Virus record (IMG/VR): IMGVR_UViG_3300042894_003937
Origin: a virus
Taxonomy: Duplodnaviria; Heunggongvirae; Uroviricota; Caudoviricetes
Reading direction: 5' to 3' (one strand)
DNA length: 64,000 nt
Each line of letters begins with the position of its first letter. Within the stretch, counting starts at the first letter, position 1. The notes beneath the pieces are model-generated. The model did no database searches and was not told the origin of the DNA. It saw only the letters and a list, made by a program, of their open reading frames with translations. This document shows, piece by piece, positions 2,359-62,978 of this stretch. Both the position numbers and the translations under genes were made by a program.

Positions 2359-2562
2359 ATGACACTACAATTTGAAGTCGGAGATAAAGTTTTCTTACAA
2401 TCAAATCCTTTTGAAGATGGTAATTTTCTCACAAGTGGAAAGAAACTTGTTATAGATGTAAAAGATACATCTGATATGCCTGGTGCTAAATCAAATCAAT
2501 GGATTATGGTAGAAGGTTATAATGATTGGATTGATAGTACTTGGTTAAAAAAAATAAAATGA
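2359..2562 (+). CDS. small hypothetical protein
   Basis: 67-aa ORF. Confidence 0.4.
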   Translation: MTLQFEVGDKVFLQSNPFEDGNFLTSGKKLVIDVKDTSDMPGAKSNQWIMVEGYNDWIDSTWLKKIK

Positions 2563-6114: not shown

Positions 6115-6813
6115 ATGACAAAAACTACTACAGACTTTACAATAAATCAAAAATTTGACTTTTTAAGTGACTTAACTACTATGGTAGTAAACAATACTAC
6201 ACCATCCATCGTGGTTGTGGGACAAGGTGGACTAGGAAAAACTCACTCTGTGTTAGCAACCATCAAAGACAATGATGTTGATGAAAGTAATTTCTTATTC
6301 ATTAAAGGTTACTCAACTGCGAGAGGTCTTTATAATACTTTATATGATAATAACGGAAAACTGATCGTATTTGACGACTGTGACTCTGTGTTAGAAGATA
6401 AAATCGCACTTAACATCTTAAAATCAGCTCTTGACTCTTACGAAAAAAGAACAATAACTTGGTCTGCTCGTATGAATAAAGCAGATGTTTATCCACAATC
6501 ATTTGATTTCACTGGAAGAATTATCTTTATTTCTAATAAAGACAAATCTAAAATTGATGGTGCTATCTTATCAAGAAGTTTAACTGTTGATTTGAGTATG
6601 ACACCAGATGAAAAAATCGAAAGAATGGAATACATCTTACCTAACATCTTACCAGACTATGAGTTAGCAGTTAAGAAAGATGCTTTAAAATTCTTATCAG
6701 AGAATAAAGAAAGTGATAACTTGAACCTTAGAACATTGATAATGGTGTCTAAAATTAGACATTCTTACAAGAATACTTGGCAAGACTTATCAAACTATAT
6801 GATAAATTCATAA
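6115..6813 (+). CDS. P-loop NTPase (Walker A GQGGLGKT, Walker B LIVFDDCD)
   Basis: 232 aa with both Walker motifs. Confidence 0.6.
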   Translation: MTKTTTDFTINQKFDFLSDLTTMVVNNTTPSIVVVGQGGLGKTHSVLATIKDNDVDESNFLFIKGYSTARGLYNTLYDNNGKLIVFDDCDSVLEDKIALNILKSALDSYEKRTITWSARMNKADVYPQSFDFTGRIIFISNKDKSKIDGAILSRSLTVDLSMTPDEKIERMEYILPNILPDYELAVKKDALKFLSENKESDNLNLRTLIMVSKIRHSYKNTWQDLSNYMINS

Positions 6814-7049
6814 TGACTAATAGATCAGCATACGGAACATTTACCGTTGTTTATATCGACGACTACTATGATACTCTTACTACTGGTAAAGAGTATCAAG
6901 TCGGTATTTATGATATAATCGAACAAGGTTCTTCCGAAGAAAGCTATCTTATTGAAAATGATTTAGGTTACACTGAATGTTTCTATAGTGATAGTTTCAA
7001 AAGAGTAAACAAATCCGAAGAACGTGATATAAAGTTAAAGGAATTGTGA
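6777..7049 (+). CDS. small protein with tail motif (..EERDIKLKEL)
   Basis: 90-aa ORF. Confidence 0.45.
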   Translation: MARLIKLYDKFIMTNRSAYGTFTVVYIDDYYDTLTTGKEYQVGIYDIIEQGSSEESYLIENDLGYTECFYSDSFKRVNKSEERDIKLKEL

Positions 7050-7058: not shown

Positions 7059-7433
7059 ATGATAAATTTTAAATGGAAAACTAAAAAGTCAGACTCTAGA
7101 GCTACATTCCCATTAGATGTAATCTATACTCGTAATATAAAATTATTATTCGGTATTCAAATAGCGGAATATATTCGTGTAGTTACTTATCCTGGTTGTA
7201 CTAATAAAAGATTTACATATCTACGAAGAGTTCTCACATCTGAAAGTCCGTGGACTCACCTACAAGATCCAAAATGGAAAATCAGAATAACTAGATCTTT
7301 AAATTTACTTCTTCATAAAGATATAGAAGCCAATGAAGTTTTAGAAACAAAATACATTAAAAAGTATCCATTTTTAATGAAAAACTTCTTAGAATTAGAA
7401 AGAGAAAGAAAACTCAAACAACTAGGAATATGA
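7059..7433 (+). CDS. hypothetical protein with tail motif (..RERKLKQLGI)
   Basis: 124-aa ORF. Confidence 0.5.
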   Translation: MINFKWKTKKSDSRATFPLDVIYTRNIKLLFGIQIAEYIRVVTYPGCTNKRFTYLRRVLTSESPWTHLQDPKWKIRITRSLNLLLHKDIEANEVLETKYIKKYPFLMKNFLELERERKLKQLGI

Positions 7434-7788: not shown

Positions 7789-8205
7789 ATGAGAGTCATA
7801 TTCACCGACATAGACGGAGTTCTAAATCCACATTGGAAAACAAAGTGGAGCAAGGTTGCTATAGACCAATATAACAAGGTTTGTAGAGACTTTGACTTAA
7901 CGCCTGTAATCACTTCAACCTGGAGACTAAATCACACAATAGAAGAGCTACAAGAGATTTTTACTAAACAAGGTATAACAACCCCAATTTATGATTTCAC
8001 ACCTCATATCGACCAAGCAGATAGAGGAATAGAAATAAAAGAATGGTTAAAGAATAATGCTGTTGATAACTTTGTTATCATAGATGATAAAACTTCCGAT
8101 ATAGAGCGACATATAAATAATGTGGTAAAGTGTCGTAGTTGGATCGGTTTAACAAAAGACGAATATAAAGAAATTGAAATAATACTAAATGAAAGTAATT
8201 TGTAA
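7789..8205 (+). CDS. HAD-superfamily hydrolase-like protein (motif I DxDG: FTDIDGVL)
   Basis: 138 aa; DIDGV near the N-terminus; VIIDDK later. Confidence 0.5.
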   Translation: MRVIFTDIDGVLNPHWKTKWSKVAIDQYNKVCRDFDLTPVITSTWRLNHTIEELQEIFTKQGITTPIYDFTPHIDQADRGIEIKEWLKNNAVDNFVIIDDKTSDIERHINNVVKCRSWIGLTKDEYKEIEIILNESNL

Positions 8206-8413
8206 TATAGGATATGAAGCTACTCACCGTGGTGAAGCAGGGAATGTAAGAATTGTATTTAAGAGAGGTCAAGTATATGATACGTTATCTGAATATGATA
8301 ACTGTTATATGTTCTTATTTGACCACGACATTTATATTATAAAAAAACTGTACTTTCTGACATTAGAACAAGTAGCTAAGAGAAAACTATTCTCGTTTAA
8401 CAAAAAAGCTTAG
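8189..8413 (+). CDS. small hypothetical protein
   Basis: 74-aa ORF. Confidence 0.4.
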   Translation: MKVICNIGYEATHRGEAGNVRIVFKRGQVYDTLSEYDNCYMFLFDHDIYIIKKLYFLTLEQVAKRKLFSFNKKA

Positions 8414-17052: not shown

Positions 17053-17661
17053 ATGAAACTATCATCCGAACTAAAAAAATTTATAGATAAAGAATACTCC
17101 AATCACCAATGCTTCCCACCTAAACACCTTATACTACACGCACTAAACAACATAGAAAACACCAAAGTTATCATCATAGGTCAAGACCCCTACCACGGCC
17201 ATAACCAAGCTCACGGTCTAGCTTTCTCCACACTCGACACCACAATCCCACCTTCTCTGAAAAACATCTTTAAAGAGCTTAATAACGATTTAAACATCGA
17301 AACACCAACACACGGTAACCTAACCCATTGGCATAACCAAGGAGTACTTCTTCTCAATACAATACTAACAGTAAGAAAACACCAACCACTATCCCATAAG
17401 AATAAAGGATGGGAACAATACACCAATAACATTATATCAGAACTAAATAATAATAAGAATAATCTCGTATTCATTCTATGGGGTTCACAAGCTCACAAGA
17501 CAGAGAAACTTATCGATACGAATAAACACCTTATATTAAAGTCTGGCCATCCATCACCACTATCCGCTAATGCAGGGAAATGGTTCAATAATAAACACTT
17601 TAGTAAAACGAATCAATATCTCACAGAGAATAATATAACACCTATCGACTGGACACTATGA
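17053..17661 (+). CDS. ung: uracil-DNA glycosylase, family 1
   Basis: GQDPYHGHNQAHGLAFS, VLLLNTILTVR, GHPSPLSA and PIDW are collinear with E. coli Ung; catalytic Asp and His motifs are intact. Confidence 0.92.
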   Translation: MKLSSELKKFIDKEYSNHQCFPPKHLILHALNNIENTKVIIIGQDPYHGHNQAHGLAFSTLDTTIPPSLKNIFKELNNDLNIETPTHGNLTHWHNQGVLLLNTILTVRKHQPLSHKNKGWEQYTNNIISELNNNKNNLVFILWGSQAHKTEKLIDTNKHLILKSGHPSPLSANAGKWFNNKHFSKTNQYLTENNITPIDWTL

Positions 17662-17996
17662 TAACAACTACCGCACTACCTAAATCAAAATACTTTATTA
17701 AGAACGTAATAGAAAGTTTTCACATACAAGGAACTACTATTGAGATAGAAGCATTCTATGATACATTACATAAAGGTAATAGATACTCTTGTACAGTCAA
17801 ATCAATAAGAACACAATATCCAACAGGACACTACAACCGTAAATCATTTAAAGTATGTGGTGGATATGGCAAAGATAATCAAATTACCCATCCAACATAC
17901 GAGAGTATTCTTCTACACGCTTTACAAATGGCCGAACTAGGTAACGATATAATAAGAGACTTTAAACTTAAACTTATACTAAATTCTACTGAATGA
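17658..17996 (+). CDS. hypothetical protein
   Basis: 112 aa; ATGA overlap with ung. Confidence 0.5.
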   Translation: MITTTALPKSKYFIKNVIESFHIQGTTIEIEAFYDTLHKGNRYSCTVKSIRTQYPTGHYNRKSFKVCGGYGKDNQITHPTYESILLHALQMAELGNDIIRDFKLKLILNSTE

Positions 17997-18229
17997 AAAC
18001 AACTGATGGGTACGAACTACCAGAAGAACACCTCGAAGTAATCAGAAATGTCTGTAATGTAAATGGTCAAGACTTTAATATAACTCTTATACAAAAGATG
18101 AAAAGATCTTACCAAATAGAAGGTACTTATAAAGGTATCGATAAACATTATACCGCTGAAATTGAATTCGATTATATCAAACAAGAGATTAGAAATAATC
18201 GAATAAATGATGTGTTAAATAACAAATAA
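17993..18229 (+). CDS. small protein with tail-like motif (..IRNNRINDVLNNK)
   Basis: 78 aa. Confidence 0.45.
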   Translation: MKTTDGYELPEEHLEVIRNVCNVNGQDFNITLIQKMKRSYQIEGTYKGIDKHYTAEIEFDYIKQEIRNNRINDVLNNK

Positions 18230-20457: not shown

Positions 20458-20764
20458 AGGAAAGTGTATTGTGGAGAAAGGTGATATAGTGCAAAGCACT
20501 CTCTGCGTGGGTGGAGTATTAGTTTGTAGGAAGACTTATTGTAGATATGTTTTATATAATCGTAGTTGGTCGAGAAATATAAGTGGTAAGAGTTATATTA
20601 TAATGGCGATAAAGGAAAGTGTAAATGTTTATGTTTCTAATGAAGAGGGAGGTTCTATGTTATTTTCTTTATATGATGATGGTAAGTTACCATATTTAGG
20701 GGATTATTTTATTTCGTTGGTGGATTTTCGTGAGGAAAAATTAGAACAAATTATAGGTAAATGA
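20444..20764 (+). CDS. small protein with C-terminal tail motif (..DFREEKLEQIIGK); start may be the internal ATG at 20603
   Basis: 106-aa ORF; stop overlaps the purN start (ATGA). Confidence 0.45.
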   Translation: MSVFKGKCIVEKGDIVQSTLCVGGVLVCRKTYCRYVLYNRSWSRNISGKSYIIMAIKESVNVYVSNEEGGSMLFSLYDDGKLPYLGDYFISLVDFREEKLEQIIGK

Positions 20765-26499: not shown

Positions 26500-26687
26500 A
26501 CAGCATTTACATCTTCATCACCTTCTTGGAACTCCATATCTTCATAGTAACCTTTGGATGGTGTATAATGAACTTCTTGGAACCCATTACCTTCATCATC
26601 ACGTGAGTAGATAACATCCATATCTAATGTTTCTGGGTTTGCTTCGGCAAACTTTTGTAATTGTTCGATATATTCTCTTAGTTTCAT
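26487..26687 (-). CDS. small acidic hypothetical protein
   Basis: 66 aa. Confidence 0.45.
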   Translation of the reverse strand: MKLREYIEQLQKFAEANPETLDMDVIYSRDDEGNGFQEVHYTPSKGYYEDMEFQEGDEDVNAVCIN

Positions 26688-27058
26688 TTTATATTTAATT
26701 GTTTTAGTTTATCTTCTCTTATTTCTGCAATTGATCTAGTATGTAATAACATTTCTTTTTTAATCTTCCAATGCCAATATTGTGTATAAGGATCAAAAAA
26801 CGGTATGAAGTCTTTATGTATGTAACCATTGGTTAGTTTAATAGTTTCATCTTGTTTAAAGTATAAAACTGCACCAGGTTTATCTTTAGATGTGAATGTA
26901 ATGAATATTTCATTATTACTACTCAATATATAATCTTTATTCTTTATAACAAGATAGGTTTCTTTATAATACTTATACTTTGGATAGTAAGTTAAGAATG
27001 AAGCAAGCCAAAATATACTTATTACTACCAGTAATACTGAAGTCAAGATTAGTATCAT
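26684..27058 (-). CDS. membrane protein (N-terminal TM) with tail motif (..IREDKLKQLNIK)
   Basis: 124 aa. Confidence 0.5.
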   Translation of the reverse strand: MILILTSVLLVVISIFWLASFLTYYPKYKYYKETYLVIKNKDYILSSNNEIFITFTSKDKPGAVLYFKQDETIKLTNGYIHKDFIPFFDPYTQYWHWKIKKEMLLHTRSIAEIREDKLKQLNIK

Positions 27059-27352: not shown

Positions 27353-27841
27353 TTATATTTCTAGTTTAATGTATTTCGAATCTTCTTTATAATCAATGAA
27401 CGTAATGTCGGTCACCTCATCTTCAATACTATCTTTTATCTTTTGTTTGGTTTCTTCTGAGATTGTGAATAGTTTCATTACTGATTTATAGATAGACCCA
27501 AAAGTCTGTTGTCTACTTTTTATATCATATACTTCTACTAAGCCATCCTTATAGTCATACGAGAACCATAATCCTTCCACCCATACACTCTGTTCTCTTT
27601 TTATATTTAGTGTCTTATCTAACGCTATATCTCTCCAATATGATATAGTCAATGAGTCTACTATTGGTTTAATCCAAGTTAGTAAATTTCTATCATCTAC
27701 TTCATCCTCTGGAAAGTTTACCCAATATGATTTACCATCAGGTCTTTCGATGGTAGCTCTTCTTTCGTCCGTATTATGACCTGAGTATCTACAAGGTTGT
27801 TTTGTCATATTACAAAGATACAATTTATATTTCAGTCTCAC
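27353..27841 (-). CDS. hypothetical protein
   Basis: 162 aa. Confidence 0.5.
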   Translation of the reverse strand: MRLKYKLYLCNMTKQPCRYSGHNTDERRATIERPDGKSYWVNFPEDEVDDRNLLTWIKPIVDSLTISYWRDIALDKTLNIKREQSVWVEGLWFSYDYKDGLVEVYDIKSRQQTFGSIYKSVMKLFTISEETKQKIKDSIEDEVTDITFIDYKEDSKYIKLEI

Positions 27842-28475
27842 AAGAAGACATCACTTCATTTATCTTCTTTTCTCTACTATCTGCAATTATCTGATAGATA
27901 TAATCGGTAAGACCTTCTTGTTTAAGAGTATCTATATTATTGAAAACACTTCTACTTTCTACATAATCTTCTATGAAGAATGGTTGATTCTGTTTTAACC
28001 AATCAATCCAAGCCCTTTGACTATTAATATCAATATTTGGTTTATCCCATTCTTGTTGAATAACTTCACAGTTATCGAATGATGGTAAATGACCGATATA
28101 TGAACCTATCAATTTAATATTTATTTTTAGATGATCGTTATTTCTTGGATCAAACTGGTAAGAATTTATTAGTTTATCTTTGAGTGTTTTACCAACTAAA
28201 GTAAATTTTATCTGACCTTCGTGATAGATACAAAGAGCTATCTTTGTGTTTTGTAGTTTTGATGGATAATTTCCCTGAGCTAACGCACCACCTTGATACA
28301 ATCCTTCTTGATAAGCTTTGGTTTTTAAAGCCGTTTTTAGATGATTCTGTGGTGTATCATAGATTACTTTACCACCAATATAAAAACCTCTTAGTTCTTC
28401 TACTGGTGAGAATGAGCCGTCTTTTTTAATGATTGGTAGTATTTTTATTATGTCACCGTCTTTTAGTTTGTACAT
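27825..28475 (-). CDS. hypothetical protein
   Basis: 216 aa. Confidence 0.5.
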   Translation of the reverse strand: MYKLKDGDIIKILPIIKKDGSFSPVEELRGFYIGGKVIYDTPQNHLKTALKTKAYQEGLYQGGALAQGNYPSKLQNTKIALCIYHEGQIKFTLVGKTLKDKLINSYQFDPRNNDHLKINIKLIGSYIGHLPSFDNCEVIQQEWDKPNIDINSQRAWIDWLKQNQPFFIEDYVESRSVFNNIDTLKQEGLTDYIYQIIADSREKKINEVMSSCETEI

Positions 28476-29297: not shown

Positions 29298-29516
29298 TTA
29301 TATCAATTTATTTAATTTTTTATCTCTTTCTACTTCTAAGGTAGCATCTTCAAATTGTCCCAATAAAAGATAGTATGAATCATTATCATAGTTATCATTG
29401 ACTTTAACAATTAAATTAGCATCAAACTTTGAAGTACCAATATAGTCGATTACTTTATATACTTCACCTTCACTTAATCGGTAACCATCCTTTTTTATAC
29501 ATCTTACCCACTTCAT
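29298..29516 (-). CDS. small protein with tail motif (..VERDKKLNKLI)
   Basis: 72 aa. Confidence 0.5.
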   Translation of the reverse strand: MKWVRCIKKDGYRLSEGEVYKVIDYIGTSKFDANLIVKVNDNYDNDSYYLLLGQFEDATLEVERDKKLNKLI

Positions 29517-32661: not shown

Positions 32662-33048
32662 TTACTCTAATATTTTATTTAATTGTTTATCTCTATATAA
32701 TTCAATAGAGAATAATTGTTTTATATTTTCTTTTGTTAGTTCGATATATTGTTTACCTTCCTTAAGCATTGCTCTATCTTTTATTCTTCTTAAAGCTTCT
32801 TTAACATCTACTGATAATGATAATGTAGAATTATCAACACCTTCTTTTAATACTGGTTCTTGCCATACAGGATGAGTATAAACTTTATAGTTATCTATAT
32901 CAAATGAGAGTTTAAGTGTTTCGAGTGATATAATAGGTTCTGTTGAAAGACTTATATTTTGGTGGAGTTTTTCTAGGTCTTGATCTTTCGTTTCTAGATT
33001 GATAGTATATGGAAGTTGCATCATTGTTATGATTGCGTCTATTGTCAT
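32662..33048 (-). CDS. hypothetical protein with tail motif (..YRDKQLNKILE)
   Basis: 128 aa. Confidence 0.5.
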   Translation of the reverse strand: MTIDAIITMMQLPYTINLETKDQDLEKLHQNISLSTEPIISLETLKLSFDIDNYKVYTHPVWQEPVLKEGVDNSTLSLSVDVKEALRRIKDRAMLKEGKQYIELTKENIKQLFSIELYRDKQLNKILE

Positions 33049-33236
33049 AGTATTTGATTTAGTTTATCTTCTCTTAATTCTTGTACAGTAGCAAAGTTTA
33101 CTTTGTGATACCGAGAAGAGTTCCAAGGTATATCAGTATGGTTTTCTAATTGGAATGATTGTGAGGAGGAAAGTATTACCTTATACCATTCTCCTTTTAT
33201 CAGAAATCTTGAACCTCTTACACACAGAACTTTCAT
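33045..33236 (-). CDS. Fam-B small protein (MKVLCV.., ..ELREDKLNQIL)
   Basis: 63 aa. Confidence 0.5.
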   Translation of the reverse strand: MKVLCVRGSRFLIKGEWYKVILSSSQSFQLENHTDIPWNSSRYHKVNFATVQELREDKLNQIL

Positions 33237-33438: not shown

Positions 33439-33672
33439 TTATATAATCTTATTTATTTGTTGTTCTCTCCATTTATCTAATTCCATAAAGTATTTCATCA
33501 TGTAAGCATAGTACTGGTTATTATCATCAGTAATCCATACTGCTATATCACCATCTAAAGAAAATATCTTATCTACGGTATAAACTTTCTGTAGGGTTAG
33601 ACCATCTATTTTAACACCATCAGGATAATGTTTGTTGATGGCTATATTATTTATACAAATGATTTGGTTCAT
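33439..33672 (-). CDS. Fam-B-like small protein (..KWREQQINKII)
   Basis: 77 aa. Confidence 0.45.
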   Translation of the reverse strand: MNQIICINNIAINKHYPDGVKIDGLTLQKVYTVDKIFSLDGDIAVWITDDNNQYYAYMMKYFMELDKWREQQINKII

Positions 33673-44298: not shown

Positions 44299-44487
44299 TT
44301 ATTCTAATTCTATTTGTTTATTTTTTCTTCTATCAGCTTTTCTTCTAGCTACTTTCGCTTTGGCTCTTGCTTTTCTAGCATTACCATAACGTTCACCTCT
44401 TTCTTCTTGCCACGTTGCTTCGCCTCGGTCGGCGTTTAAACTGATGGTGTAACCAGTTCGTGTCGATAGTTTTGATACTTTTTTCAT
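44299..44487 (-). CDS. small highly basic protein
   Basis: 62 aa; RKARAKAKVARRKADRRKNK. Confidence 0.4.
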   Translation of the reverse strand: MKKVSKLSTRTGYTISLNADRGEATWQEERGERYGNARKARAKAKVARRKADRRKNKQIELE

Positions 44488-44723
44488 ATTCCCAATTCTT
44501 TTAACTTGTTATCTCTTGACATTGATTTTGTGATAAACATATTTTTCTTGTAGTAAACTTTCATATCACCTAAGTCGGTTCTAATGAAAAGGTGTTTACT
44601 TTCTACACCATTATAAACAAAACCTCCAAACTCATAAGACTTACCTTTGGTTAGTTCCTTTACTTTGCCTTGACCTGGTATATTTCGGTAGAAGTCTCTT
44701 ACTGGTATTACTATATCTATCAT
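44484..44723 (-). CDS. small protein with tail motif (..SRDNKLKELGI)
   Basis: 79 aa. Confidence 0.45.
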   Translation of the reverse strand: MIDIVIPVRDFYRNIPGQGKVKELTKGKSYEFGGFVYNGVESKHLFIRTDLGDMKVYYKKNMFITKSMSRDNKLKELGI

Positions 44724-45448: not shown

Positions 45449-46339
45449 TTACTTATTTATAAAATTTTTCATTTTCCAAGCTTCCAATGTATTTAGAATC
45501 AATCCCGATATAGTCATTGGTCCAACACCTCCAGGTACTGGAGTTATTCTAGCTTTCTTTACAATTTCTTCATAGTCACAATCACCTACTAGTTTACCAT
45601 TATCTAGTTTATTGATACCAACATCAATCACAACTGCACCTTCTTTAATCATATCTGCTGTTACTAAATTAGGTTTACCAACTGCTACAATAACAATATC
45701 TGCTTTTAAACACTCTTCATTTAGAAGCAACTTAGGTGTATTTATATCACACGTGGTTACTGTTGATCTTCCAATGTTAAAATCATTAGATAACATAATA
45801 GAGATAGGTTTACCAACGTGATTTGATTTCCCTATAACAACGACATGTTTTCCTTTTGTTTCAATTTGGTAATACTCTAGAAGTTTCAGAATACCATAAG
45901 CGGTGGCGGGTCTCATTGATTTTTGACCTAAACACATTTTACCAAAGTTAAGTGGATGAAAACCATCAATATCTTTGTAAGCACTTATTTCATTGATAAT
46001 TGGTTCAGGTCGGATATGATTAGGTAGTGGTAGTTGAACTATGAATCCATCGTGGTGAGATTTATTTAGATTTTTGACTTCTAGTAATAAATCATACTCG
46101 GATATAGTTTCATCAAATCTAATTAGGTTGTAGTTGATGTTAGCGGATTCACAAGCTTTTAATTTGGCTTTGACATATGATTCGGATGCGGGGTTATTAC
46201 CGACAAGAATGATTGCTATACTAGGTTTAGCAATTTTATATCCTAATCTGATTTTAGATTCATTTATATGTTCGTCAACTGACTCTTTAATTTGGTTGAT
46301 AATTTTATCTGCTACTAGTTTGCCGTTTAATCTATTCAT
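45449..46339 (-). CDS. folD: bifunctional methylene-THF dehydrogenase/cyclohydrolase
   Basis: Full-length collinearity with FolD: GKHVVVIGKSNHVGKP, PVPGGVGPMT, DVDGFHP. Confidence 0.92.
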   Translation of the reverse strand: MNRLNGKLVADKIINQIKESVDEHINESKIRLGYKIAKPSIAIILVGNNPASESYVKAKLKACESANINYNLIRFDETISEYDLLLEVKNLNKSHHDGFIVQLPLPNHIRPEPIINEISAYKDIDGFHPLNFGKMCLGQKSMRPATAYGILKLLEYYQIETKGKHVVVIGKSNHVGKPISIMLSNDFNIGRSTVTTCDINTPKLLLNEECLKADIVIVAVGKPNLVTADMIKEGAVVIDVGINKLDNGKLVGDCDYEEIVKKARITPVPGGVGPMTISGLILNTLEAWKMKNFINK

Positions 46340-46568
46340 TATTTAATAGTTGATTTAATTTTTGTTCTCTTATATTTTGTATAGTCATAAAGTAGGTAAT
46401 TATTTTACCACTTTCATAACCATAAAGTGAAGGCCAACCTCTCACACCACGATCATTTAGAATGTCTAGGTTAAAACCAGTTAAATCACTTATTAGTTGG
46501 TATTTCTTACCTTTAGTAAAGTTAGCAAATCTGTGATCAACACATACTACCCAATCACCTTTTTTCAT
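46332..46568 (-). CDS. Fam-B small protein (..NIREQKLNQLLNNE)
   Basis: 78 aa; stop overlaps the folD start. Confidence 0.5.
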   Translation of the reverse strand: MKKGDWVVCVDHRFANFTKGKKYQLISDLTGFNLDILNDRGVRGWPSLYGYESGKIITYFMTIQNIREQKLNQLLNNE

Positions 46569-46792
46569 ATCAATTTATCTAATTGTTGTTCTCTCCACTG
46601 TTCTATGGTAAGAAAGTATTTTCTATCTAAAGCATATTCTGTACCTTCTTTAACAAAGAAGTATCTAGTTTTTAGAAATGGTTCAGAATCTTCTGAGTAA
46701 TCATTTCTAGATTTTTCAGTTACATCAATCCATTCACCTAACTTAATACGAAGAGTTCTTAAATGAGTATTTGATACACATATTACTTTCAT
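46565..46792 (-). CDS. Fam-B small protein (MKVICVSNT.., ..EQWREQQLDKLI)
   Basis: 75 aa; 5' 27 nt plus 13 nt upstream identical to the gene at 47138..47383. Confidence 0.55.
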   Translation of the reverse strand: MKVICVSNTHLRTLRIKLGEWIDVTEKSRNDYSEDSEPFLKTRYFFVKEGTEYALDRKYFLTIEQWREQQLDKLI

Positions 46793-47136
46793 ATACCTAG
46801 TTTATTTAATTTCTTCTCTCTTGTCTTATCTATACGATTCAGAAAATCTGGTATATCAGGAACTTCGTGATATTCCCACCACTCTGAACCATCATACTCA
46901 CCTCTTGTTGTCCAAGTACCGTCTTCATACCAAATCATACCATCTAGTTCTTGGCCACCATACCCGTTATTATACTCTCTATCTATATCAGATAAAAACT
47001 GATTATATTCATCTTCGGTGTATCCGGTTGTAAGTGAGAACCTTTCATCTTCATAATCTAACTCTATATAAGCACATTTGATTACTTTACTTTTGGTGTG
47101 TCTAACAAACTCTTCTTTTGCATTTATTATAGCCAT
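46789..47136 (-). CDS. small acidic protein with tail motif (..TREKKLNKLGI)
   Basis: 115 aa. Confidence 0.5.
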   Translation of the reverse strand: MAIINAKEEFVRHTKSKVIKCAYIELDYEDERFSLTTGYTEDEYNQFLSDIDREYNNGYGGQELDGMIWYEDGTWTTRGEYDGSEWWEYHEVPDIPDFLNRIDKTREKKLNKLGI

Positions 47137-47137
47137 A

Positions 47138-47383
47138 TTATATTCCCAGTTTTTCTAATTGGTTATTTCTCCATTTTTGTTTGTAATCTTCTGCCTTGAC
47201 AAAATATCCAGGTGGTATCCATCTTTGTTCTTCCTCAACCCAATTTGAGAAAGTTTCCCAATTATCTATATCAGTTTGCATTACTAATCCAGATAATGTA
47301 TATTCTTTACCTATTACTAGTAATGGTTCGCTTCTTTTATAATTATTTATTACGATAGTATTTGATACACATATTACTTTCAT
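47138..47383 (-). CDS. Fam-B small protein (MKVICVSNT.., ..KWRNNQLEKLGI)
   Basis: 81 aa. Confidence 0.55.
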   Translation of the reverse strand: MKVICVSNTIVINNYKRSEPLLVIGKEYTLSGLVMQTDIDNWETFSNWVEEEQRWIPPGYFVKAEDYKQKWRNNQLEKLGI

Positions 47384-47607
47384 ATACCTAGTTTATCTAA
47401 TTTATCTTGTCTATCTTGTTGAATATCTGCTTCAATAAATTCACCTGTGTGGTTTATAAAGATGTTACACGTATTCGAGAAACCTTTATCACAATTGTGT
47501 TTAACCCCATAGAAGTTTTTACCAATATGAAATACAACACCTTTTACGTTATAGATTTCGGATATCCTTTTGGTTATGATTACGTTATCTCCTATTTTAA
47601 AATTCAT
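47380..47607 (-). CDS. small protein with tail motif (..QDRQDKLDKLGI)
   Basis: 75 aa. Confidence 0.5.
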   Translation of the reverse strand: MNFKIGDNVIITKRISEIYNVKGVVFHIGKNFYGVKHNCDKGFSNTCNIFINHTGEFIEADIQQDRQDKLDKLGI

Positions 47608-47845
47608 CTAATAGTTCTTCTAATTGTTTATTTCTCCATTCTGGTAAAGATATGAAATCTTGTTGTAATACAGTAACCGCATAATTTTTACCATCAATAA
47701 AATCTATTACAATATTTATCTTATCTCCGCTCAGTTGATAATAAACAGGTTGTAATCGTGCTACTTCAAATTGGTCACCTATATTGAAATAATAATCTAA
47801 ATGGTTGAATGAATACAAACATTCTTTAATACATACTACTTTCAT
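47597..47845 (-). CDS. Fam-B small protein (MKVVCIKE.., ..EWRNKQLEELLDEF)
   Basis: 82 aa. Confidence 0.5.
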   Translation of the reverse strand: MKVVCIKECLYSFNHLDYYFNIGDQFEVARLQPVYYQLSGDKINIVIDFIDGKNYAVTVLQQDFISLPEWRNKQLEELLDEF

Positions 47846-48200
47846 CTAATATACTATTTAATTTATTATCTCTTAGTATTTGTGTAAAGTTTACAAAAGT
47901 ATAATCATCCCAATCACCATAGACATCATAGTCCCTATTAGACCTAGAATATAGTTGGTATTCAAATCTTACACCAAATTCCATACTTATTATTCTTTTC
48001 CTTACTAAAATGATAGAACTATGTTTCGTGGATAGAAATTGAGTATATTTTTCAAACATATCTTCTTCTTCACTTTCTTTCCAATCCATCTTCTGATAAG
48101 TAATGCCTTCTTGTTTACTTATCTCGATAAATTGTTTTATATGTTCGAATGTATCACATATAAATGCGGTATTACCGTTTTCTATTATTTCTTTAATCAT
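47826..48200 (-). CDS. hypothetical protein with tail-like motif (..ILRDNKLNSILDESSMY)
   Basis: 124 aa. Confidence 0.5.
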   Translation of the reverse strand: MIKEIIENGNTAFICDTFEHIKQFIEISKQEGITYQKMDWKESEEEDMFEKYTQFLSTKHSSIILVRKRIISMEFGVRFEYQLYSRSNRDYDVYGDWDDYTFVNFTQILRDNKLNSILDESSMY

Positions 48201-48411
48201 TTAAAATCTGATTTATTTTATTATCTCTTAATTGTTGAATTGTAATAAAGCTTTCTTTCCGAAACTGACTTTGTATATTATTATCTGCAATAAGTAAATA
48301 TCCATGTTCATTGATGGATTCCACCTCATATATTTCACCTACTGTTAGAAATCTATAGTGTATAGTATTCGGATTTTCATTTGCCGCAGTTGATATACAT
48401 TTAACTTTCAT
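48193..48411 (-). CDS. Fam-B small protein (MKVKCIS.., ..QQLRDNKINQILND)
   Basis: 72 aa. Confidence 0.5.
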   Translation of the reverse strand: MKVKCISTAANENPNTIHYRFLTVGEIYEVESINEHGYLLIADNNIQSQFRKESFITIQQLRDNKINQILND

Positions 48412-48622
48412 TTAAAATCTGATTTATTTTATTCTCTCTTACCTCTGCGGTCGCATCTTCGAACCATGTATGAATATCATATGTACATTCAAAATCTGCA
48501 TCATTTGTTAGTATGATATAGGTAAGATTACTCCAATCTGATGTCCAGTAACGTTTGACCTCATATACTTTTTGATACGTTAGATTGACTGCCAATGGAT
48601 TCACACACTTAACCCAGTTCAT
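48401..48622 (-). CDS. Fam-B small protein (MNWVKCV.., ..EVRENKINQILNES)
   Basis: 73 aa. Confidence 0.5.
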   Translation of the reverse strand: MNWVKCVNPLAVNLTYQKVYEVKRYWTSDWSNLTYIILTNDADFECTYDIHTWFEDATAEVRENKINQILNES

Positions 48623-48846
48623 TACAATCGTCTTAGTTCAAAGATTTCATCTTCAAAGGTTTTATCTAAATAATCTTGGGCTTCTTGCTCTGAGTCGTCT
48701 TCTAATGATAAACCTAATAGTTCAATTTGTTTTGGTTCATTATCAATGATTTCGTATATGGTAACAAGTTTGCTACCGGTACATTCTAGTACATCGTCTC
48801 CGTAATCTTCTACGGCGATGTCTACTACATAGTAAAATTTTCTCAT
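48622..48846 (-). CDS. small acidic protein
   Basis: 74 aa. Confidence 0.45.
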   Translation of the reverse strand: MRKFYYVVDIAVEDYGDDVLECTGSKLVTIYEIIDNEPKQIELLGLSLEDDSEQEAQDYLDKTFEDEIFELRRL

Positions 48847-48847
48847 A

Positions 48848-49120
48848 TTAGTTTTCTTCTGTTTGTTCTACTTCTTCTACATAAACATCGATTTCATCAC
48901 CATCATCACCTTGATAGTCTAATTCATACTTATATGAATCTTTGACGTAGGTTCCTGGGAAATGTTCTGATTCTGGACTGAATCTAGCTAATCTAGACCA
49001 ATCTTCTGTTGCTTCATAGATTTCTTCTTCTAAGTCTTCTAATGCCAAGTCTGATTCGATTTCTAGTTCAACTCTAACCTGTGCGGTTACATACTGGTTT
49101 AAATAAATTTTGTACTTCAT
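48848..49120 (-). CDS. small acidic protein
   Basis: 90 aa. Confidence 0.45.
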   Translation of the reverse strand: MKYKIYLNQYVTAQVRVELEIESDLALEDLEEEIYEATEDWSRLARFSPESEHFPGTYVKDSYKYELDYQGDDGDEIDVYVEEVEQTEEN

Positions 49121-49121
49121 A

Positions 49122-49394
49122 TTATTGTTTTAGTGTTATTTTTCGTATATCTGGTTTAACAAAACATAAGTCAATACCTTTATTTTGAATTATTTGTTTT
49201 AATTGATCTTCATTCCAATGATTAAGTTGAATAGAAGGTGCTGCAATGTTATGTATCGGTGTTAAAACACTGACATCACCTTCGTCTTCACCTACTGGTG
49301 TAAAGAATATATAATCATTTTCTGATACGTCAAATTGTTCCATTACTAGATTCAATTTATCAATCAGTTGTTTTATTGTTAAAGGTTGTATCAT
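49122..49394 (-). CDS. small hypothetical protein
   Basis: 90 aa. Confidence 0.45.
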   Translation of the reverse strand: MIQPLTIKQLIDKLNLVMEQFDVSENDYIFFTPVGEDEGDVSVLTPIHNIAAPSIQLNHWNEDQLKQIIQNKGIDLCFVKPDIRKITLKQ

Positions 49395-49406
49395 AATTTA
49401 TTTGTT

Positions 49407-49586
49407 TTAAAAATCCTCACTGATTGAATCTAATCTAGATGTCGTATTTACTTTATCCACCTTTTGATTGATAGATTCACATGCAGTTAGATATCCTTTA
49501 ATTTCTTCTTCTGACCAACCTTCAAATGATTGTTCTTTTAAAGTTTTGATATATCGTTTTATCTCTTCAAAATAATAGTTGTTCAT
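49407..49586 (-). CDS. small hypothetical protein (59 aa, MNNYYFEEIKRYIKTLKEQSFEGW..)
   Basis: Hand translation; one residue below the ORF-track cut-off; fills the gap. Confidence 0.4.
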   Translation of the reverse strand: MNNYYFEEIKRYIKTLKEQSFEGWSEEEIKGYLTACESINQKVDKVNTTSRLDSISEDF

Positions 49587-49592
49587 ATTTTT

Positions 49593-51091: not shown

Positions 51092-51412
51092 CTAATATAA
51101 ATCTTCCGAGTATAAAGTCGTCTTTAACTCTTCAGTCTGACCTGCCATAAAAGCTATTTGACCTGCTTCTTTTCTATCAACAAATCTATTAGTATTGGTT
51201 AAGAACCCTTGTTCGTATTCACCAACACCATCAACCGCGTTTGTGACACTTCTTAGTCCAGTTAAAGAAGCCATAGTCCACATACATTGACCGTGACGAT
51301 GGCCTAGAACAACTAAGCCTTTATCACAGTTTTTTGGTAGAACTTGAGGTATTTCTTTCTTTAAAGGGATTTCTTTGTACCAGATAGCGGCACATAGTAT
51401 GTACTCTTTCAT
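51092..51412 (-). CDS. hypothetical protein
   Basis: 106 aa. Confidence 0.5.
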   Translation of the reverse strand: MKEYILCAAIWYKEIPLKKEIPQVLPKNCDKGLVVLGHRHGQCMWTMASLTGLRSVTNAVDGVGEYEQGFLTNTNRFVDRKEAGQIAFMAGQTEELKTTLYSEDLY

Positions 51413-52044
51413 TAAGCTATATTTAATTCGTTAAGTTTCATTTCTCTTAGAACTTCTAAGTTTATTGATAATGGTTCATTCTTTGAAGCATATCTTTTAT
51501 TATGTTTAATAAGATACTCTTCAATTGTTATTTCATTATCTCCCATATCACTAGGGGATATACCATAAGGAATTACTAGTTTATCACCTAACATGTATGA
51601 ACTAATATAATTCATTTTAAGGTCCCAATCTTTTATCATGGTGTAAACCTTTTGGTAGTTAAGAAAAGCATTGAATAGTACTTCCCATTTAGAGACTAAT
51701 TCTTTTTTAATAATACGCTGGGCTATATCATCTGTTATAGGATAAACTTTATAAGCAAAAACTTGATTATCATATTTAGATGAATAGTGTCTAGGTGTAT
51801 TTATGATGTCGTGTTCAAAGTAGTAGTATTGGTTACCTTGTTTAGTTAAACCATCTCTTATATGGTCGGAAGATCTTGGATAATCTTCGTGTTTTACAAA
51901 AGCGATAGCCGTTTCATCGGTGATTACATCGATGAAAGGTTCGCATTTAGTTAAGGTTTTTATGGATTTATCTCTTATTACTATCATTTTCATATTTTTT
52001 TCTACCCACACATTTTGTTTTTTCTTTTGTGTCCCATAGGTCAC
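51412..52044 (-). CDS. hypothetical protein with tail-like motif (..LREMKLNELNIA); start may be the internal Met at 51993
   Basis: 210 aa. Confidence 0.5.
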   Translation of the reverse strand: MTYGTQKKKQNVWVEKNMKMIVIRDKSIKTLTKCEPFIDVITDETAIAFVKHEDYPRSSDHIRDGLTKQGNQYYYFEHDIINTPRHYSSKYDNQVFAYKVYPITDDIAQRIIKKELVSKWEVLFNAFLNYQKVYTMIKDWDLKMNYISSYMLGDKLVIPYGISPSDMGDNEITIEEYLIKHNKRYASKNEPLSINLEVLREMKLNELNIA

Positions 52045-58555: not shown

Positions 58556-58813
58556 TTGAATCTCGACAATATACAAAAGGTTATCTGTATAAAAAATACA
58601 CGTGAGATTGATGGTGAGATATTTGTAGAAAATAGATTACAGGTTGGTAAGATATATGATATGCAACGTATTTTATATACTGATGATAACTCCTGGGACT
58701 TATGGAATTGTTATATACATGATGGAGAGGTTTTTATAGTACCTTTAGATTTTTTTGAGTATTTAGAACAGTGGAGAGATAAACAATTAAATATTTTATT
58801 AAATAGCAAATGA
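58556..58813 (+). CDS. Fam-B small protein (..KVICIKN.., ..EQWRDKQLNILLNSK)
   Basis: 85 aa. Confidence 0.5.
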   Translation: MNLDNIQKVICIKNTREIDGEIFVENRLQVGKIYDMQRILYTDDNSWDLWNCYIHDGEVFIVPLDFFEYLEQWRDKQLNILLNSK

Positions 58814-62771: not shown

Positions 62772-62978
62772 TTATTTGTTTAGTAAATCATTTAATAATT
62801 TATCTCTTTTTTCTTCAATTGGTTCAAAACGATCTTTAGTGAACCAAAAGTTTCTACCTAAATCATCAATTATTCGGTAGCCAATCGTATCTATATCAGT
62901 TAGTTGATAGTAAGCATCTATTCTTAATCCTTTTAATCTACCTACACCATCATGATCTTTAATACATTTAACTTTCAT
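62772..62978 (-). CDS. Fam-B small protein (MKVKCIKDH.., ..EEKRDKLLNDLLNK)
   Basis: 68 aa. Confidence 0.5.
   Translation of the reverse strand: MKVKCIKDHDGVGRLKGLRIDAYYQLTDIDTIGYRIIDDLGRNFWFTKDRFEPIEEKRDKLLNDLLNK

What the first reader, a model, noticed from the sequence alone, without database searches (positions are those of the whole stretch)
46332..49586. 13-gene tandem array of small ORFs sharing a C-terminal tail motif; about 28 ORFs window-wide end in the same motif
Many small proteins that are otherwise dissimilar end within their last 10-14 residues in [W/F/L]-R-[ED]-x-[KQ]-[LI]-[NDE]-x-[LI]-[LIG]. Examples are ..EQWREQQLDKLI, ..KWRNNQLEKLGI, ..EWRNKQLEELL, ..QLRDNKINQIL, ..VRENKINQIL, ..IREQKLNQLL, ..FREEKLEQIIGK, ..LRDKKIDELFK and ..YRDKQLNKILE. 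Codon usage for the motif varies (aga/cgt, aaa/caa, tta/cta/att), so conservation is at the protein level. Several members also share an N-terminal MKV[IKV]C[VI] beta-strand ('Fam-B'). The motif-bearing stop codons routinely overlap the next start (..GGTATATGA). A common C-terminal tag on dozens of unrelated small proteins suggests a shared docking/assembly peptide, a targeting or degron signal, or a protein-level footprint of a translational-coupling element. I know of no described equivalent.
Basis: seen in the sequence. Interest (0 to 1): 0.8.

Follow-up and report, generated by a model that had tools for sequence, protein, structure and literature searches.

The report
Shared C-terminal helix tag, huge phage
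About a fifth of the small genes in this stretch of a giant bacteriophage genome, and 10-15% of all genes in a published 635-kb relative, end in the same short helical peptide although their bodies are unrelated, so the peptide looks like an undescribed phage-specific protein tag whose binding partner is unknown.

Summary
The motif R-[EDNQ]-x-[KQR]-[LI]-x-x-[LIV] ends 28 of 137 window ORFs, against 0.04 expected. Of 29 matches, 28 lie within 8 residues of the stop codon. In the flagged 13-gene array, 9 genes carry it, not 13.

"Otherwise dissimilar" is half right. Twelve to fourteen carriers form one divergent SH3-like family (Pfam DUF6501/DUF7244 relatives). The others fall into about 20 unrelated body types. 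These include membrane proteins and a phrog_3972 homologue whose relatives in T5-like phages lack the tail.

Conservation is at the protein level. Codons vary at conserved hydrophobic positions, and orthologues change only E/D and L/I. AlphaFold predicts a helix. Only the "-GI" ending (GGN ATA TGA) reflects start/stop overlap.

The tag is specific to one phage clade. A 634,780-bp Mahaphage genome has 97-146 tagged ORFs. 596 Gbp of cellular genomes gave one DNA-pattern hit. No paper found in the library describes it, and neither PDB nor Pfam has a match to the tail.

Best reading: a cytoplasmic helical docking tag for an unknown shared partner, spread by recombination at repeated tail/start junctions. 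The function is inferred, not shown.

The parts
46332..46568 (-). Array gene 1, 78 aa, SH3-like body, tail IREQKLNQLLNNE; its stop overlaps the folD start
46565..46792 (-). Array gene 2, 75 aa, SH3-like (MKVICV...), tail WREQQLDKLI
46789..47136 (-). Array gene 3, 115 aa, phrog_3972 body with appended tail TREKKLNKLGI. T5-like and Shemara homologues lack the tail. AlphaFold predicts the tail as helix 102-112 with pLDDT 64-69.
47138..47383 (-). Array gene 4, 81 aa, SH3-like, tail WRNNQLEKLGI
47380..47607 (-). Array gene 5, 75 aa, body not matched by the SH3 profile, tail DRQDKLDKLGI
47597..47845 (-). Array gene 6, 82 aa, SH3-like, tail WRNKQLEELLDEF
47826..48200 (-). Array gene 7, 124 aa, unrelated body, tail LRDNKLNSILDESSMY
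48193..48411 (-). Array gene 8, 72 aa, SH3-like. AlphaFold model has pLDDT 92.8, five strands and tail helix 58-71 (IQQLRDNKINQILN).
48401..48622 (-). Array gene 9, 73 aa, SH3-like, tail VRENKINQILNES. Its 34-nt tail DNA is 97% identical to that of gene 8.
48622..49586 (-). Four upstream array ORFs (74, 90, 90 and 59 aa) WITHOUT the tail. They lie inside the flagged interval but are not part of the tagged set.
477..689 (+). 70 aa, tail LRDKKIDELFK; convergent with the next entry
678..1244 (-). 188 aa, two transmembrane segments, C-terminal domain predicted cytoplasmic, tail RRDKKIDELLK
657..711 (.). Near-perfect palindrome (24+24 bp arms; folds as a 25-bp stem, -38.8 kcal/mol, z = -10.6) that encodes the same tail on both strands at the convergent gene ends
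1502..1717 (-). 71 aa, tail RREDKINEILDGTI
1707..2123 (+). 138 aa, tail VRDQKIIEILK
2559..2918 (+). 119 aa, tail IREYKLESLFVF; next gene 43 nt away
6813..7049 (+). 78 aa, SH3-like, tail ERDIKLKEL (motif ends at the stop)
7059..7433 (+). 124 aa, tail ERERKLKQLGI; no downstream co-oriented gene (convergent, 92 nt)
17658..17996 (+). 112 aa, tail IRDFKLKLILNSTE
17993..18229 (+). 78 aa, tail IRNNRINDVLNNK; convergent end
20603..20764 (+). 53 aa, tail FREEKLEQIIGK
26684..27058 (-). 124 aa, N-terminal membrane anchor, C-terminus predicted inside, tail IREDKLKQLNIK
27825..28475 (-). 216 aa, tail SREKKINEVMSSCETEI
29298..29516 (-). 72 aa, SH3-like, tail ERDKKLNKLI
32662..33048 (-). 128 aa, tail YRDKQLNKILE; next gene 51 nt away
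33045..33236 (-). 63 aa, SH3-like, tail LREDKLNQIL
33439..33672 (-). 77 aa, SH3-like, tail WREQQINKII; next gene 202 nt away
44484..44723 (-). 79 aa, SH3-like, tail SRDNKLKELGI
51412..51993 (-). 193 aa, tail LREMKLNELNIA. Nearly all (about 71) of the 74 homologues (34-96% identity, on contigs up to 640 kb) end in this tail or a close variant.
58661..58813 (+). 50 aa, tail WRDKQLNILLNSK
62772..62978 (-). 68 aa, SH3-like, variant tail KRDKLLNDLLNK (loose regex only)
2120..2353 (+). 77 aa, SH3-like body with a degenerate tail (FKEQLEKMKLNENLK)
8189..8413 (+). 74 aa, SH3-like body with a degenerate tail (VAKRKLFSFNKKA)
46766..46821 (.). Junction repeat copy 1 (end of tail, ATGA, then the MKVICVSNT start). 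It is 91% identical over 56 nt to 47357-47412, although the upstream gene bodies are unrelated.
47357..47412 (.). Junction repeat copy 2

Best explanation
The window comes from an uncultured huge phage related to the 634,780-bp Mahaphage genome LR745206.1. In this clade a 10-17-residue C-terminal peptide forms a short, hydrophilic alpha-helix. Its consensus is h-[ST]-h-x-[EQ]-h-R-[ED]-x-[KQ]-[LI]-[ND]-x-[LI]-[LG]-[I/x]. The conserved residues (Leu/Trp, an invariant Arg, Lys/Gln, Leu, Leu) lie on one face.

Shown here:
- The peptide is conserved at the amino-acid level.
- It sits on many unrelated cytoplasmic or cytoplasm-facing small proteins.
- It was appended to at least one protein family that lacks it elsewhere, and then stayed almost invariant.
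- It is specific to phage sequence in the collections scanned.

Inferred: it is a portable docking tag, a helical short linear motif. It brings a large and fast-changing set of accessory proteins to one common partner, either phage-encoded or a conserved host hub, which remains unidentified.

Inferred from DNA repeats and shuffled gene order: the tag spreads, and the arrays expand and shuffle, by recombination. The substrate is the repeated junction formed by the end of the tail, the ATGA stop/start overlap and the conserved 5' end of the next gene.

The '-GI' ending is a secondary DNA-level adaptation. It creates the overlapping ATG of the next gene.
For: Position and excess: 28 C-terminal matches against 0.04 expected; 28 of 29 matches are terminal.

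Protein-level selection:
- Codons are mixed at conserved hydrophobic positions.
- In 9 window/L001 orthologue pairs there were 7 synonymous changes, and the 8 substitutions at key positions were conservative, mostly E/D and L/I.
- In 54 tail-bearing phrog_3972 homologues (49-97% identical bodies), R is 54/54, [DE] 51/54, K 49/54, [LI] 54/54 and [IL] 53/54.

Portability:
- The phrog_3972 body is 48-56% identical to T5-like and Shemara proteins that end before the tail.
- 66 of 120 homologues lack it.
- 58 BLAST-level body clusters occur among 103 carriers.
- LR745206.1 has only 7 SH3-like bodies but 97-146 tails.

Structure: helix 58-71 at pLDDT 78-90 on the SH3-like protein. On the phrog_3972 protein it is a separate, lower-confidence helix 102-112 after a loop.

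Cytoplasmic location:
- All 5 transmembrane carriers have the C-terminus inside by the positive-inside rule.
- No lipoprotein-like ORF carries the tag.

Clade specificity: the DNA pattern hits once in 596 Gbp of cellular genomes but 35 times on IMG/VR contigs of up to 476 kb.

Spread by recombination:
- A 56-nt junction repeat at 91% identity lies between unrelated upstream genes.
- Junction matches of 34-73 nt at non-orthologous places, with shuffled gene order, appear against L001.
- A near-perfect palindrome encodes the tail on both strands.
- About 20 internal copies in LR745206.1 look like cassette fusions.
Against: - No partner was identified and no binding was tested. 'Docking' rests on the pattern of conservation, namely one conserved face with an invariant Arg on unrelated bodies.
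- The helix scores high confidence in the SH3-like model, so in that family it may simply pack on its own domain.
- Arg is AGA in 29 of 32 tails and the same-codon fraction is 0.71 against 0.54 expected. Some DNA- or RNA-level constraint, or recent gene conversion, therefore also acts.
- Tail genes overlap the next start twice as often as other small ORFs: 61% against 30%, p = 6e-10.
- No tagged protein has a known function, so there is no functional anchor.
- The greedy ORF calls include some false genes among the 'non-tail' controls.
Confidence: 0.45

Rival explanations
1. Self-association module. The tail is a generic homo- or hetero-oligomerisation helix that dimerises or bundles small effector proteins, with no separate receptor.
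For: It is a helix with hydrophobic residues at i, i+3/4 and i+7. Tandem-repeat relatives of the SH3-like domain exist as single polypeptides, so non-covalent joining of single domains would be a plausible equivalent.
Against: The helix is only about 14 residues long, short for a stable coiled coil. An invariant Arg and a Lys/Gln sit in the middle of the conserved face (helical-wheel reasoning). The amphipathic moment is low, 0.20. Uncontrolled hetero-association among 100-150 different proteins would seem costly.
Confidence: 0.18
2. Family signature only. The tail is simply the conserved C-terminal helix of one divergent paralogous family, so nothing is shared between unrelated proteins.
For: With tails masked, jackhmmer joins 26 window and L001 proteins. 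The body-only HMM finds 12 of 32 window carriers (14 window ORFs in all, two with degenerate tails). In the exhaustive search, 95 of 102 small relatives carry the tail.
Against: The phrog_3972 body has tail-less homologues at 48-56% identity. Membrane proteins, a 731-aa protein and about 20 other window body types carry the tail. LR745206.1 has 97-146 tails but only 7 SH3-like bodies.
Confidence: 0.05
3. Footprint of translational coupling or the initiation region. The last codons are constrained because they form the A-rich, Shine-Dalgarno-less initiation region of the overlapping downstream gene.
For: Start regions are 55-64% A and G-poor, with no SD. Tail genes overlap the next start in 61% of cases against 30%. 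26 of 29 '-GI' endings are GGN ATA TGA. AGA and TTA are over-used.
Against: - 37 of 128 carriers have no close downstream gene, and 17 of these are convergent.
- The distance from motif to stop varies from 0 to 8 residues.
- Position 8 uses eight different codons.
- The residue pattern is position-specific and helical rather than merely A-rich.
- Genuine-looking internal copies exist.
- The tail is kept when -LGI is exchanged for -IL(E) between orthologues.
Confidence: 0.07
4. Recombination junction is the selected unit. The repeated DNA at gene boundaries is maintained because it drives cassette shuffling, as proposed for the promoter/stem-loop cassettes of T4-type phages, and the peptide is a by-product.
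For: Junction repeats of 34-73 nt at 80-97% identity occur between non-orthologous genes. Gene order is shuffled between the window and L001 with breakpoints at junctions. The tail is encoded by a palindrome. There is an excess of shared codons.
Against: Conservation follows amino-acid class across different codon families. The tail is nearly invariant as protein in families diverged to 34-49% identity. A distant lineage (L009) keeps the same residue pattern, SEIRNE[KT]INKLLEDES.
Confidence: 0.1
5. Degron or timer. The tail marks early proteins for degradation by a host or phage protease.
For: It has a C-terminal location on many small, probably early, accessory proteins. This is only the general analogy with C-terminal degrons (established knowledge).
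Against: Known C-terminal degrons such as ssrA are read at the free carboxyl end. Here 0-8 variable, mostly polar residues follow the motif, and the motif also occurs internally. No test was possible.
Confidence: 0.08
6. Membrane-targeting amphipathic helix, as in MinD or FtsA.
For: It is a C-terminal helix with Trp, Arg and Lys next to Leu. A second, basic tail type (RRxxKIKRIF) in the same genome looks more like such a helix.
Against: The hydrophobic moment is 0.17-0.23 with mean hydrophobicity -0.25 to -0.39, against 0.45-0.57 for the MinD and FtsA helices. The net charge is about zero or negative, and Arg sits at the centre of the face.
Confidence: 0.03

Closest known systems
Capsid-targeting sequence of phage T4 internal proteins (IPI-III, Alt) and propeptides of phiKZ-like internal head proteins
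   Same: A short terminal peptide shared by several otherwise different phage proteins, which directs them to one destination. The genes are often paralogous and lie in arrays.
   Different: Those signals are N-terminal and are removed by the prohead protease. This tag is C-terminal, has no evident cleavage site, and sits on 10-23% of ORFs, including membrane proteins. The comparison is from memory and no virion data exist. The N-terminal MKYLKxFxE family in the same window is a closer formal match to that system.
Encapsulin cargo-loading peptides
   Same: A C-terminal tag of about 10-15 residues on unrelated cargo proteins, read by a shell protein with the HK97 phage-capsid fold.
   Different: The consensus is different (Gly/Ser/Leu-rich and extended, not an Arg-centred helix). 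There is no evidence that tagged proteins enter the capsid, and the partner is untested.
Poxvirus ankyrin/PRANC (F-box-like) proteins and other viral adaptor families with a constant C-terminal docking element
   Same: Many fast-evolving viral proteins with variable target-binding bodies share a constant C-terminal element that plugs them into one cellular machine.
   Different: PRANC is a folded domain of about 50 residues that binds Skp1. Here the element is a single short helix in a bacterial virus, and the hub is unknown. This is a functional analogy only.
Pfam DUF6501 / DUF7244 small phage SH3-like domains (for example B. subtilis SPbeta YorP, PDB 2HEQ)
   Same: The bodies of 12-14 window carriers are related to these domains. 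The window profile retrieves proteins that pass the DUF6501 threshold. The AlphaFold model is an SH3-like barrel.
   Different: The Pfam models end before the tail. The tail also occurs on non-SH3 bodies. Multi-repeat DUF6501 proteins lack it.
Promoter/stem-loop (PeSL) mobile cassettes of T4-type phage hyperplastic regions
   Same: Repeated short sequences at gene boundaries in arrays of small accessory genes, associated with modular shuffling.
   Different: PeSLs are intergenic regulatory DNA. Here the repeat is coding (tail end plus next start) and the peptide itself is under selection.

Membership tests
Pfam DUF6501 (PF20111) / DUF7244 (PF23896) | HMM match at or above the gathering score | tested here: inconclusive
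   The best window protein (48193-48411) scores 20.4 bits against a cut-off of 23.8. Its 79%-identical relative P0003 carries a precomputed PF20111 hit. Proteins retrieved by the window-family profile score 41-73 bits. This applies to the SH3-like bodies only, not to the tail.
SH3-like small beta-barrel fold | Five-stranded barrel that superposes on SH3 domains | tested here: met
   The AlphaFold model has pLDDT 92.8 with five strands. The top Foldseek PDB hits are SH3 domains, with probability 0.9-0.99 and TM 0.5-0.6 but E >= 0.1. BFVD hits are uncharacterised phage proteins.
T4-type capsid-targeting sequence | N-terminal position followed by a prohead-protease cleavage site | tested here: not met
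   The tag is C-terminal in 28 of 29 window matches and 97 of 118 LR745206.1 matches. The family definition is from memory.
T4-type capsid-targeting sequence | Tagged proteins are found inside the virion | not testable with these tools
   There is no cultured phage and no proteome.
Encapsulin cargo-loading peptide | Short C-terminal peptide on unrelated cargo proteins | tested here: met
Encapsulin cargo-loading peptide | Binds the inner face of an HK97-fold shell protein | not testable with these tools
   No multimer prediction is available, and the capsid gene is not in the window.
Bacterial/T4 sliding-clamp-binding motif (QL[SD]LF type) | Consensus Q-L-x-L-[FL] at or near the C-terminus | tested here: not met
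   The tail consensus from 82 copies is R-[ED]-x-[KQ]-[LI]-N-x-[LI]-[LG]. The spacing differs and an invariant upstream Arg is present. The clamp-motif consensus is from memory.
C-terminal degron of the ssrA/ClpX type | Recognition residues fixed at the free C-terminus | tested here: not met
   Between 0 and 8 variable residues follow the motif, and internal copies exist.
MinD/FtsA-type membrane-targeting helix | Strongly amphipathic, net-basic terminal helix | tested here: not met
   The hydrophobic moment is 0.17-0.23, against 0.45-0.57 for MinD and FtsA.
Type IX secretion C-terminal domain (Bacteroidota) | C-terminal beta-sandwich domain of about 70-100 aa on proteins with a signal peptide | tested here: not met
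   The tail is a 10-17-aa helix. No lipoprotein-like ORF carries it, and the transmembrane carriers have the C-terminus inside.
Any curated family covering the tail itself | A match of the tail segment to Pfam, PHROGs or PDB sequences | tested here: not met
   The tail-only profile gives 0 PDB hits at E <= 10. No Pfam or PHROG hit covers the tail.

The most novel reading that the evidence does not exclude
These huge phages run their own protein-sorting code. Two terminal tags are mutually exclusive. The N-terminal M-K-Y-L-K-x-F-x-E tag is on 17% of window ORFs and 7% of LR745206.1 ORFs. The C-terminal R-E-x-K-L-N-x-L helix is on 20-23% and 10-15% respectively. Under this reading the two tags send roughly a fifth of the proteome to different destinations: for instance, the N-tag to the capsid interior, and the C-tag to a phage-built cytoplasmic hub. 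That hub could be an adaptor that hands host targets bound by the variable bodies to a protease, or a scaffold or compartment of the infection factory.
Probability: 0.15. Interest if true: 0.9.

Novelty: new variant of a known kind. Interest (0 to 1): 0.72.

Why it matters
Huge phages (350-735 kb) consist mostly of genes with no known function. A single portable peptide on 10-23% of their ORFs would be a handle on that dark matter. One pull-down with a 15-residue peptide could identify the hub to which more than 100 accessory proteins are delivered, and so show what those proteins are for. If the partner is a host hub, the tag is a new example of viral motif mimicry in bacteria. If the partner is phage-encoded, it points to protein sorting or scaffolded assembly organised by a phage. 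The junction repeats also suggest how a coding tag and modular gene shuffling can reinforce each other in hyperplastic phage regions. In practice, the motif is a clean marker for this clade in metagenomes, with one hit in 596 Gbp of cellular genomes.

Tried and rejected
- Pfam and PHROGs on 20 window carriers and on the 10 largest LR745206.1 carriers. The only significant hit was phrog_3972; DUF6501 and two other PHROGs (phrog_4927, phrog_33140) matched only weakly.
- A tail-only profile against PDB sequences gave no hit at E <= 10. The family profile gave only spurious WD40 and adhesin hits.
- Literature searches on phage small proteins with C-terminal motifs, DUF6501/DUF7244/YorP, and huge, jumbo or mega phages with a conserved C-terminal or targeting sequence found nothing relevant. 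Neither the Mahaphage paper nor the jumbo-phage comparative review contains a passage on such a motif.
I replaced it with a degenerate DNA pattern scan.
- The listing of cluster members gave no names or organisms.
- The idea that SH3-like barrels are themselves the receptors for tails in trans was dropped as the main model. LR745206.1 has only 7 such bodies for about 100-150 tails and no multi-repeat receptor.
- A nascent-peptide arrest element was rejected because the distance from motif to stop is not fixed.
- Promoter or Shine-Dalgarno roles for the core motif were rejected. There is no SD signal genome-wide and third codon positions vary.
- Single 50-kb samples of Lak-A1 (read with codes 11 and 15) and of the 735-kb genome LR756501.1 showed no tails. 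One sample each is too little to call the tag absent there.

Full report
**1. What is in the sequence**

The window is 29-32% GC and densely packed with short ORFs. The flagged interval 46332-49586 holds 13 co-oriented minus-strand ORFs of 59-124 aa. They lie immediately upstream of folD (45449-46339) and a methyltransferase gene.

Of these, 28 matches end 0-8 residues before the stop. Shuffling each protein 2,000 times gives a mean of 0.51 matches anywhere and 0.04 at C-termini.

In the array itself only the nine genes from 46332 to 48622 carry the tail. The four genes from 48622 to 49586 do not.

Over 82 copies from five loci the extended consensus is F-F-I-T-[LI]-x-E-[WLI]-R-[ED]-x-K-[LI]-N-x-[LI]-[LG]-I.

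**2. Protein level or DNA level**

- Codons: the hydrophobic residue at position 8 is encoded by CTA, TTA, TTG, CTG, ATA, ATT, ATC and GTG. Position 4 uses AAA, AAG and CAA. Position 5 uses TTA, CTN and ATA.
- Orthologues: between nine window/L001 orthologue pairs, the eight motif codons show 48 identical codons, 7 synonymous changes and 17 replacements. The 8 replacements at the key positions are conservative, mostly E/D or L/I.
- A weaker DNA-level signal also exists. Arg is AGA in 29 of 32 tails against 70% genome-wide. The same-codon fraction among tails is 0.71 against 0.54 expected.
- Start regions in this genome are 55-64% A and G-poor, with no Shine-Dalgarno signal. This is the pattern known for Bacteroidota. 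A-rich codon choice near the next start is therefore expected.
- The '-GI' ending is clearly shaped by DNA. 26 of 29 such endings are GGN-ATA-TGA, and 25 of those overlap the next ATG. Between orthologues, -LGI is freely exchanged for -IL(E).
- The core motif does not depend on a downstream gene. 37 of 128 small tail-bearing ORFs in four data sets have none nearby, and 17 of these are convergent. The distance from the motif to the stop varies from 0 to 8 residues, peaking at 2-3.

**3. One family or many**

With tails masked, jackhmmer joins 26 window and L001 proteins. An HMM of the body alone finds 14 window ORFs; 12 of the 32 window carriers match it.

L-T-x-G-x-x-Y-x-V ... F-x-T-[IL]-x-x-W-R.... 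AlphaFold (pLDDT 92.8) predicts five strands followed by helix 58-71, which is the tail. The barrel superposes on SH3 domains. An exhaustive profile search finds 4,232 cluster representatives. The small ones (95 of 102) carry the tail, and the multi-repeat giants do not. The domain corresponds to Pfam DUF6501/DUF7244.

The remaining carriers are different proteins.
- After trimming tails, 103 carriers from five loci fall into 58 BLAST-level clusters, 21 of them with a window member.
- They include membrane proteins.
- They also include the 115-aa product of 46789-47136. Its body is phrog_3972 (E = 7.5e-25) and is 48-56% identical to proteins of T5-like phages and of phage Shemara. Those proteins stop at ...PEIPDFLK or carry an unrelated end.
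- Of 120 metagenomic homologues of that protein, the 54 closest (49-97% identity) have the extension ...L-N-R-I-D-K-V-R-[ED]-x-K-[LI]-N-x-[IL]-L, with R at 54/54 and [LI] at 54/54. The other 66 end just after P-x-I-P-x-x-L.
- The tail was therefore added to a pre-existing protein and then held under strong purifying selection. In its AlphaFold model the tail is a separate helix (102-112, pLDDT 64-69) behind a loop, while the body scores 80-94.
- A second carrier, 51412-51993 (193 aa), keeps LRE[ML][KR][LF]NELNIA in nearly all of its 74 homologues down to 34% identity. These lie on contigs of up to 640 kb.

**4. Where else it occurs**

- Syntenic metagenomic contigs carry it on 28 of 58 ORFs (L001) and 24 of 61 ORFs (L008). 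A 25%-GC contig (L006) carries it on 4 of 11.
- I reassembled LR745206.1 from 13 fetched pieces. At 634,780 bp it matches by length the 634-kb genome of Al-Shayeb et al. 2020. That paper places all genomes above 634 kb in the Mahaphage clade and predicts Bacteroidetes hosts (PMC7162821).
- In LR745206.1, 963 greedy ORFs include 97 with strict and 146 with loose C-terminal tails, spread over the genome with clusters near its ends.
- Only 7 ORFs there have the SH3-like body. None of the 10 largest carriers, up to 731 aa, has a Pfam domain.
- About 20 internal matches in that genome look genuine (for example RDKKIDHILNG and RDIKINQILENR). They are most simply read as fused cassettes.
- The degenerate DNA pattern AGAGANNNNAARYTNAAYNNNYTNGGNATATGA occurs once in 596 Gbp of bacterial and archaeal genomes, on a 3.5-kb MAG contig. 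It occurs 35 times on 16 IMG/VR contigs, several of them 170-476 kb long.
- One 50-kb sample each of Lak-A1 and of the 735-kb genome showed none. This is too little to claim absence.
- A distinct lineage (L009, 24% GC) has about 45 tandem SH3-like genes that all end in SE[IL]RN[ED][KT]I[ND]KLLEDES.

**5. Cellular location**

- All five transmembrane carriers have the tail on the side predicted to be cytoplasmic by the positive-inside rule.
- No lipoprotein-like ORF carries it.
- The helix is hydrophilic and weakly amphipathic (moment 0.17-0.23), unlike the MinD and FtsA membrane helices (0.45-0.57).
- On a helical wheel the conserved Leu(-4), Trp/Leu(-1), Arg(0), Lys(3), Leu(4) and Leu(7) fall on one face, with Arg at its centre (my calculation from the consensus). 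This is the usual look of a docking helix rather than a zipper or a lipid anchor.

**6. How it spreads**

- Inside the array, 46766-46821 and 47357-47412 are 91% identical over 56 nt. Each consists of the end of a tail, the ATGA overlap and the MKVICVSNT start of the next gene. The upstream genes, phrog_3972 and a 75-aa protein, are unrelated.
- The 34-nt tail segments of genes 8 and 9 are 97% identical, although their bodies have diverged.
- Against L001, junction segments of 34-73 nt match several non-orthologous junctions at 80-91% identity. Gene order differs between the two, with breakpoints at junctions.
- At 657-711 a near-perfect palindrome (24+24 bp arms; folds as a 25-bp stem, -38.8 kcal/mol, z = -10.6) encodes RDKKIDEL on both strands. 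It lies at the ends of two convergent, unrelated genes.
- These repeats are plausible substrates for unequal or illegitimate recombination. Such events would expand and shuffle the arrays and fuse incoming genes to a resident tail. This step is inferred.

**7. Interpretation**

Shown: a clade-specific C-terminal helix, selected at the protein level and portable, on about 20% of the ORFs in this window and 10-15% of those in a complete relative.

Inferred (confidence about 0.45): it docks its carriers to one common partner.

Rivals, each treated in its own entry: self-association, degron, coupling footprint, recombination junction as the selected unit, membrane helix, and family signature.

No curated family, solved structure or paper found in the accessible library describes the tail. 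I therefore treat it as a new variant of the general class of shared terminal tags. It is not a member of any named system.

**8. Limits**

- ORFs were called greedily (longest ATG ORF, at most 45 nt of overlap), so the non-tail controls include some false genes.
- Regex-based counts define Arg(0) by construction. The homology-based alignments are the independent check.
- No multimer prediction, expression data or virion data were available.

Noticed in passing
window 4687-5557, 8410-17034 (13 in tandem), 18930-19451, 24384-25390, 25668-26171, 34183-35123, 39100-41098, 42517-43131, 53117-54604, 59930-61261: A second terminal motif. 23 of 137 window ORFs and 69 of 963 LR745206.1 ORFs begin M-[KR]-[YH]-[LIV]-[KR]-x-[FY]-x-E (MKYLKRFNES..., often followed by DFCE). 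This motif and the C-terminal tail are mutually exclusive: 0/32 against 23/105 in the window (p = 0.002), and 3/146 against 66/817 in LR745206.1 (p = 0.008). From memory it resembles the T4 capsid-targeting sequence MKTYQEFIAE, but it may simply be a paralogous family.
   Followed up: partly
window 657-711: A near-perfect inverted repeat (24+24 bp arms; folds as a 25-bp stem, -38.8 kcal/mol, z = -10.6) at the overlapping 3' ends of convergent genes 477-689(+) and 678-1244(-). It encodes the same tail peptide on both strands and may also act as a bidirectional terminator.
   Followed up: partly
window 18736-18864, 20335-20457, 21565-21699, 57394-57546, 59749-59874; L001 1437-1556, 1658-1807, 7888-7995: Very short ORFs (35-50 aa) end in a basic variant, R-R-x-x-K-I-[KR]-[RD]-[IL]-F (for example RKIKRIYE, KIRRIFNG, KIKRLF). 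The spacing matches the main tail but the peptide is strongly cationic. It might be a membrane- or nucleic-acid-binding helix.
   Followed up: no
window 46789-47136, residues 92-100; homologues P0161-P0280: The phrog_3972 family ends in, or continues past, a conserved P-[ED]-I-P-[DE]-[FYSE]-L-[KN] segment. The DIPDFLNR and EIPDFLK versions resemble, from memory, the FtsZ C-terminal peptide D-I-P-x-F-L-[RK] that binds FtsA and ZipA. The Phe is not conserved across the family, so the resemblance is weak.
   Followed up: no
L009 (ENA ERZ28616081 scaffold_178), 171-4043 and 10001-16058: About 45 tandem 61-78-aa DUF6501-like genes in a 24%-GC contig, nearly all ending in SE[IL]RN[ED][KT]I[ND]KLLEDES. 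They sit next to a 704-aa protein made of about 6 repeats of the same domain and lacking the tail.
   Followed up: partly
window 21800-22390 and 22497-24305; 35980-37230 and 37245-37982: Two pairs of adjacent paralogues with identical N-termini. One pair is 196 and 602 aa ([25 protein letters not shown]); the 602-aa member has a weak, sub-threshold collagen-repeat match. The other pair begins MIQSIIGTSFTGGYNP; the 416-aa member has leucine-rich repeats, and the 245-aa one was not scanned. These may be interchangeable receptor-binding or host-interaction modules.
   Followed up: no
window 17053-17661, 43840-44268, 44729-46339, 50672-51043, 55255-56358: Host-like metabolic genes are interspersed with the arrays. 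They include a uracil-DNA glycosylase family protein (Pfam hit on the window ORF). Through their syntenic L001 counterparts, I also identify RpiB/LacAB, a methyltransferase plus FolD, an MGS-like protein and thymidylate synthase. folD is the only part of window 44500-52000 with a DNA-level match to LR745206.1 (73%).
   Followed up: partly
LR745206.1 71455-71883, 194897-195382, 271072-271620, 332300-332968, 357716-358123 and others: About 20 genuine-looking copies of the tail motif lie near the N-terminus or in the middle of longer ORFs, followed by [ND]-G and a further domain. The simplest reading is fusion of a tagged cassette to the next gene. It also shows that the motif can be tolerated internally.
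   Followed up: partly
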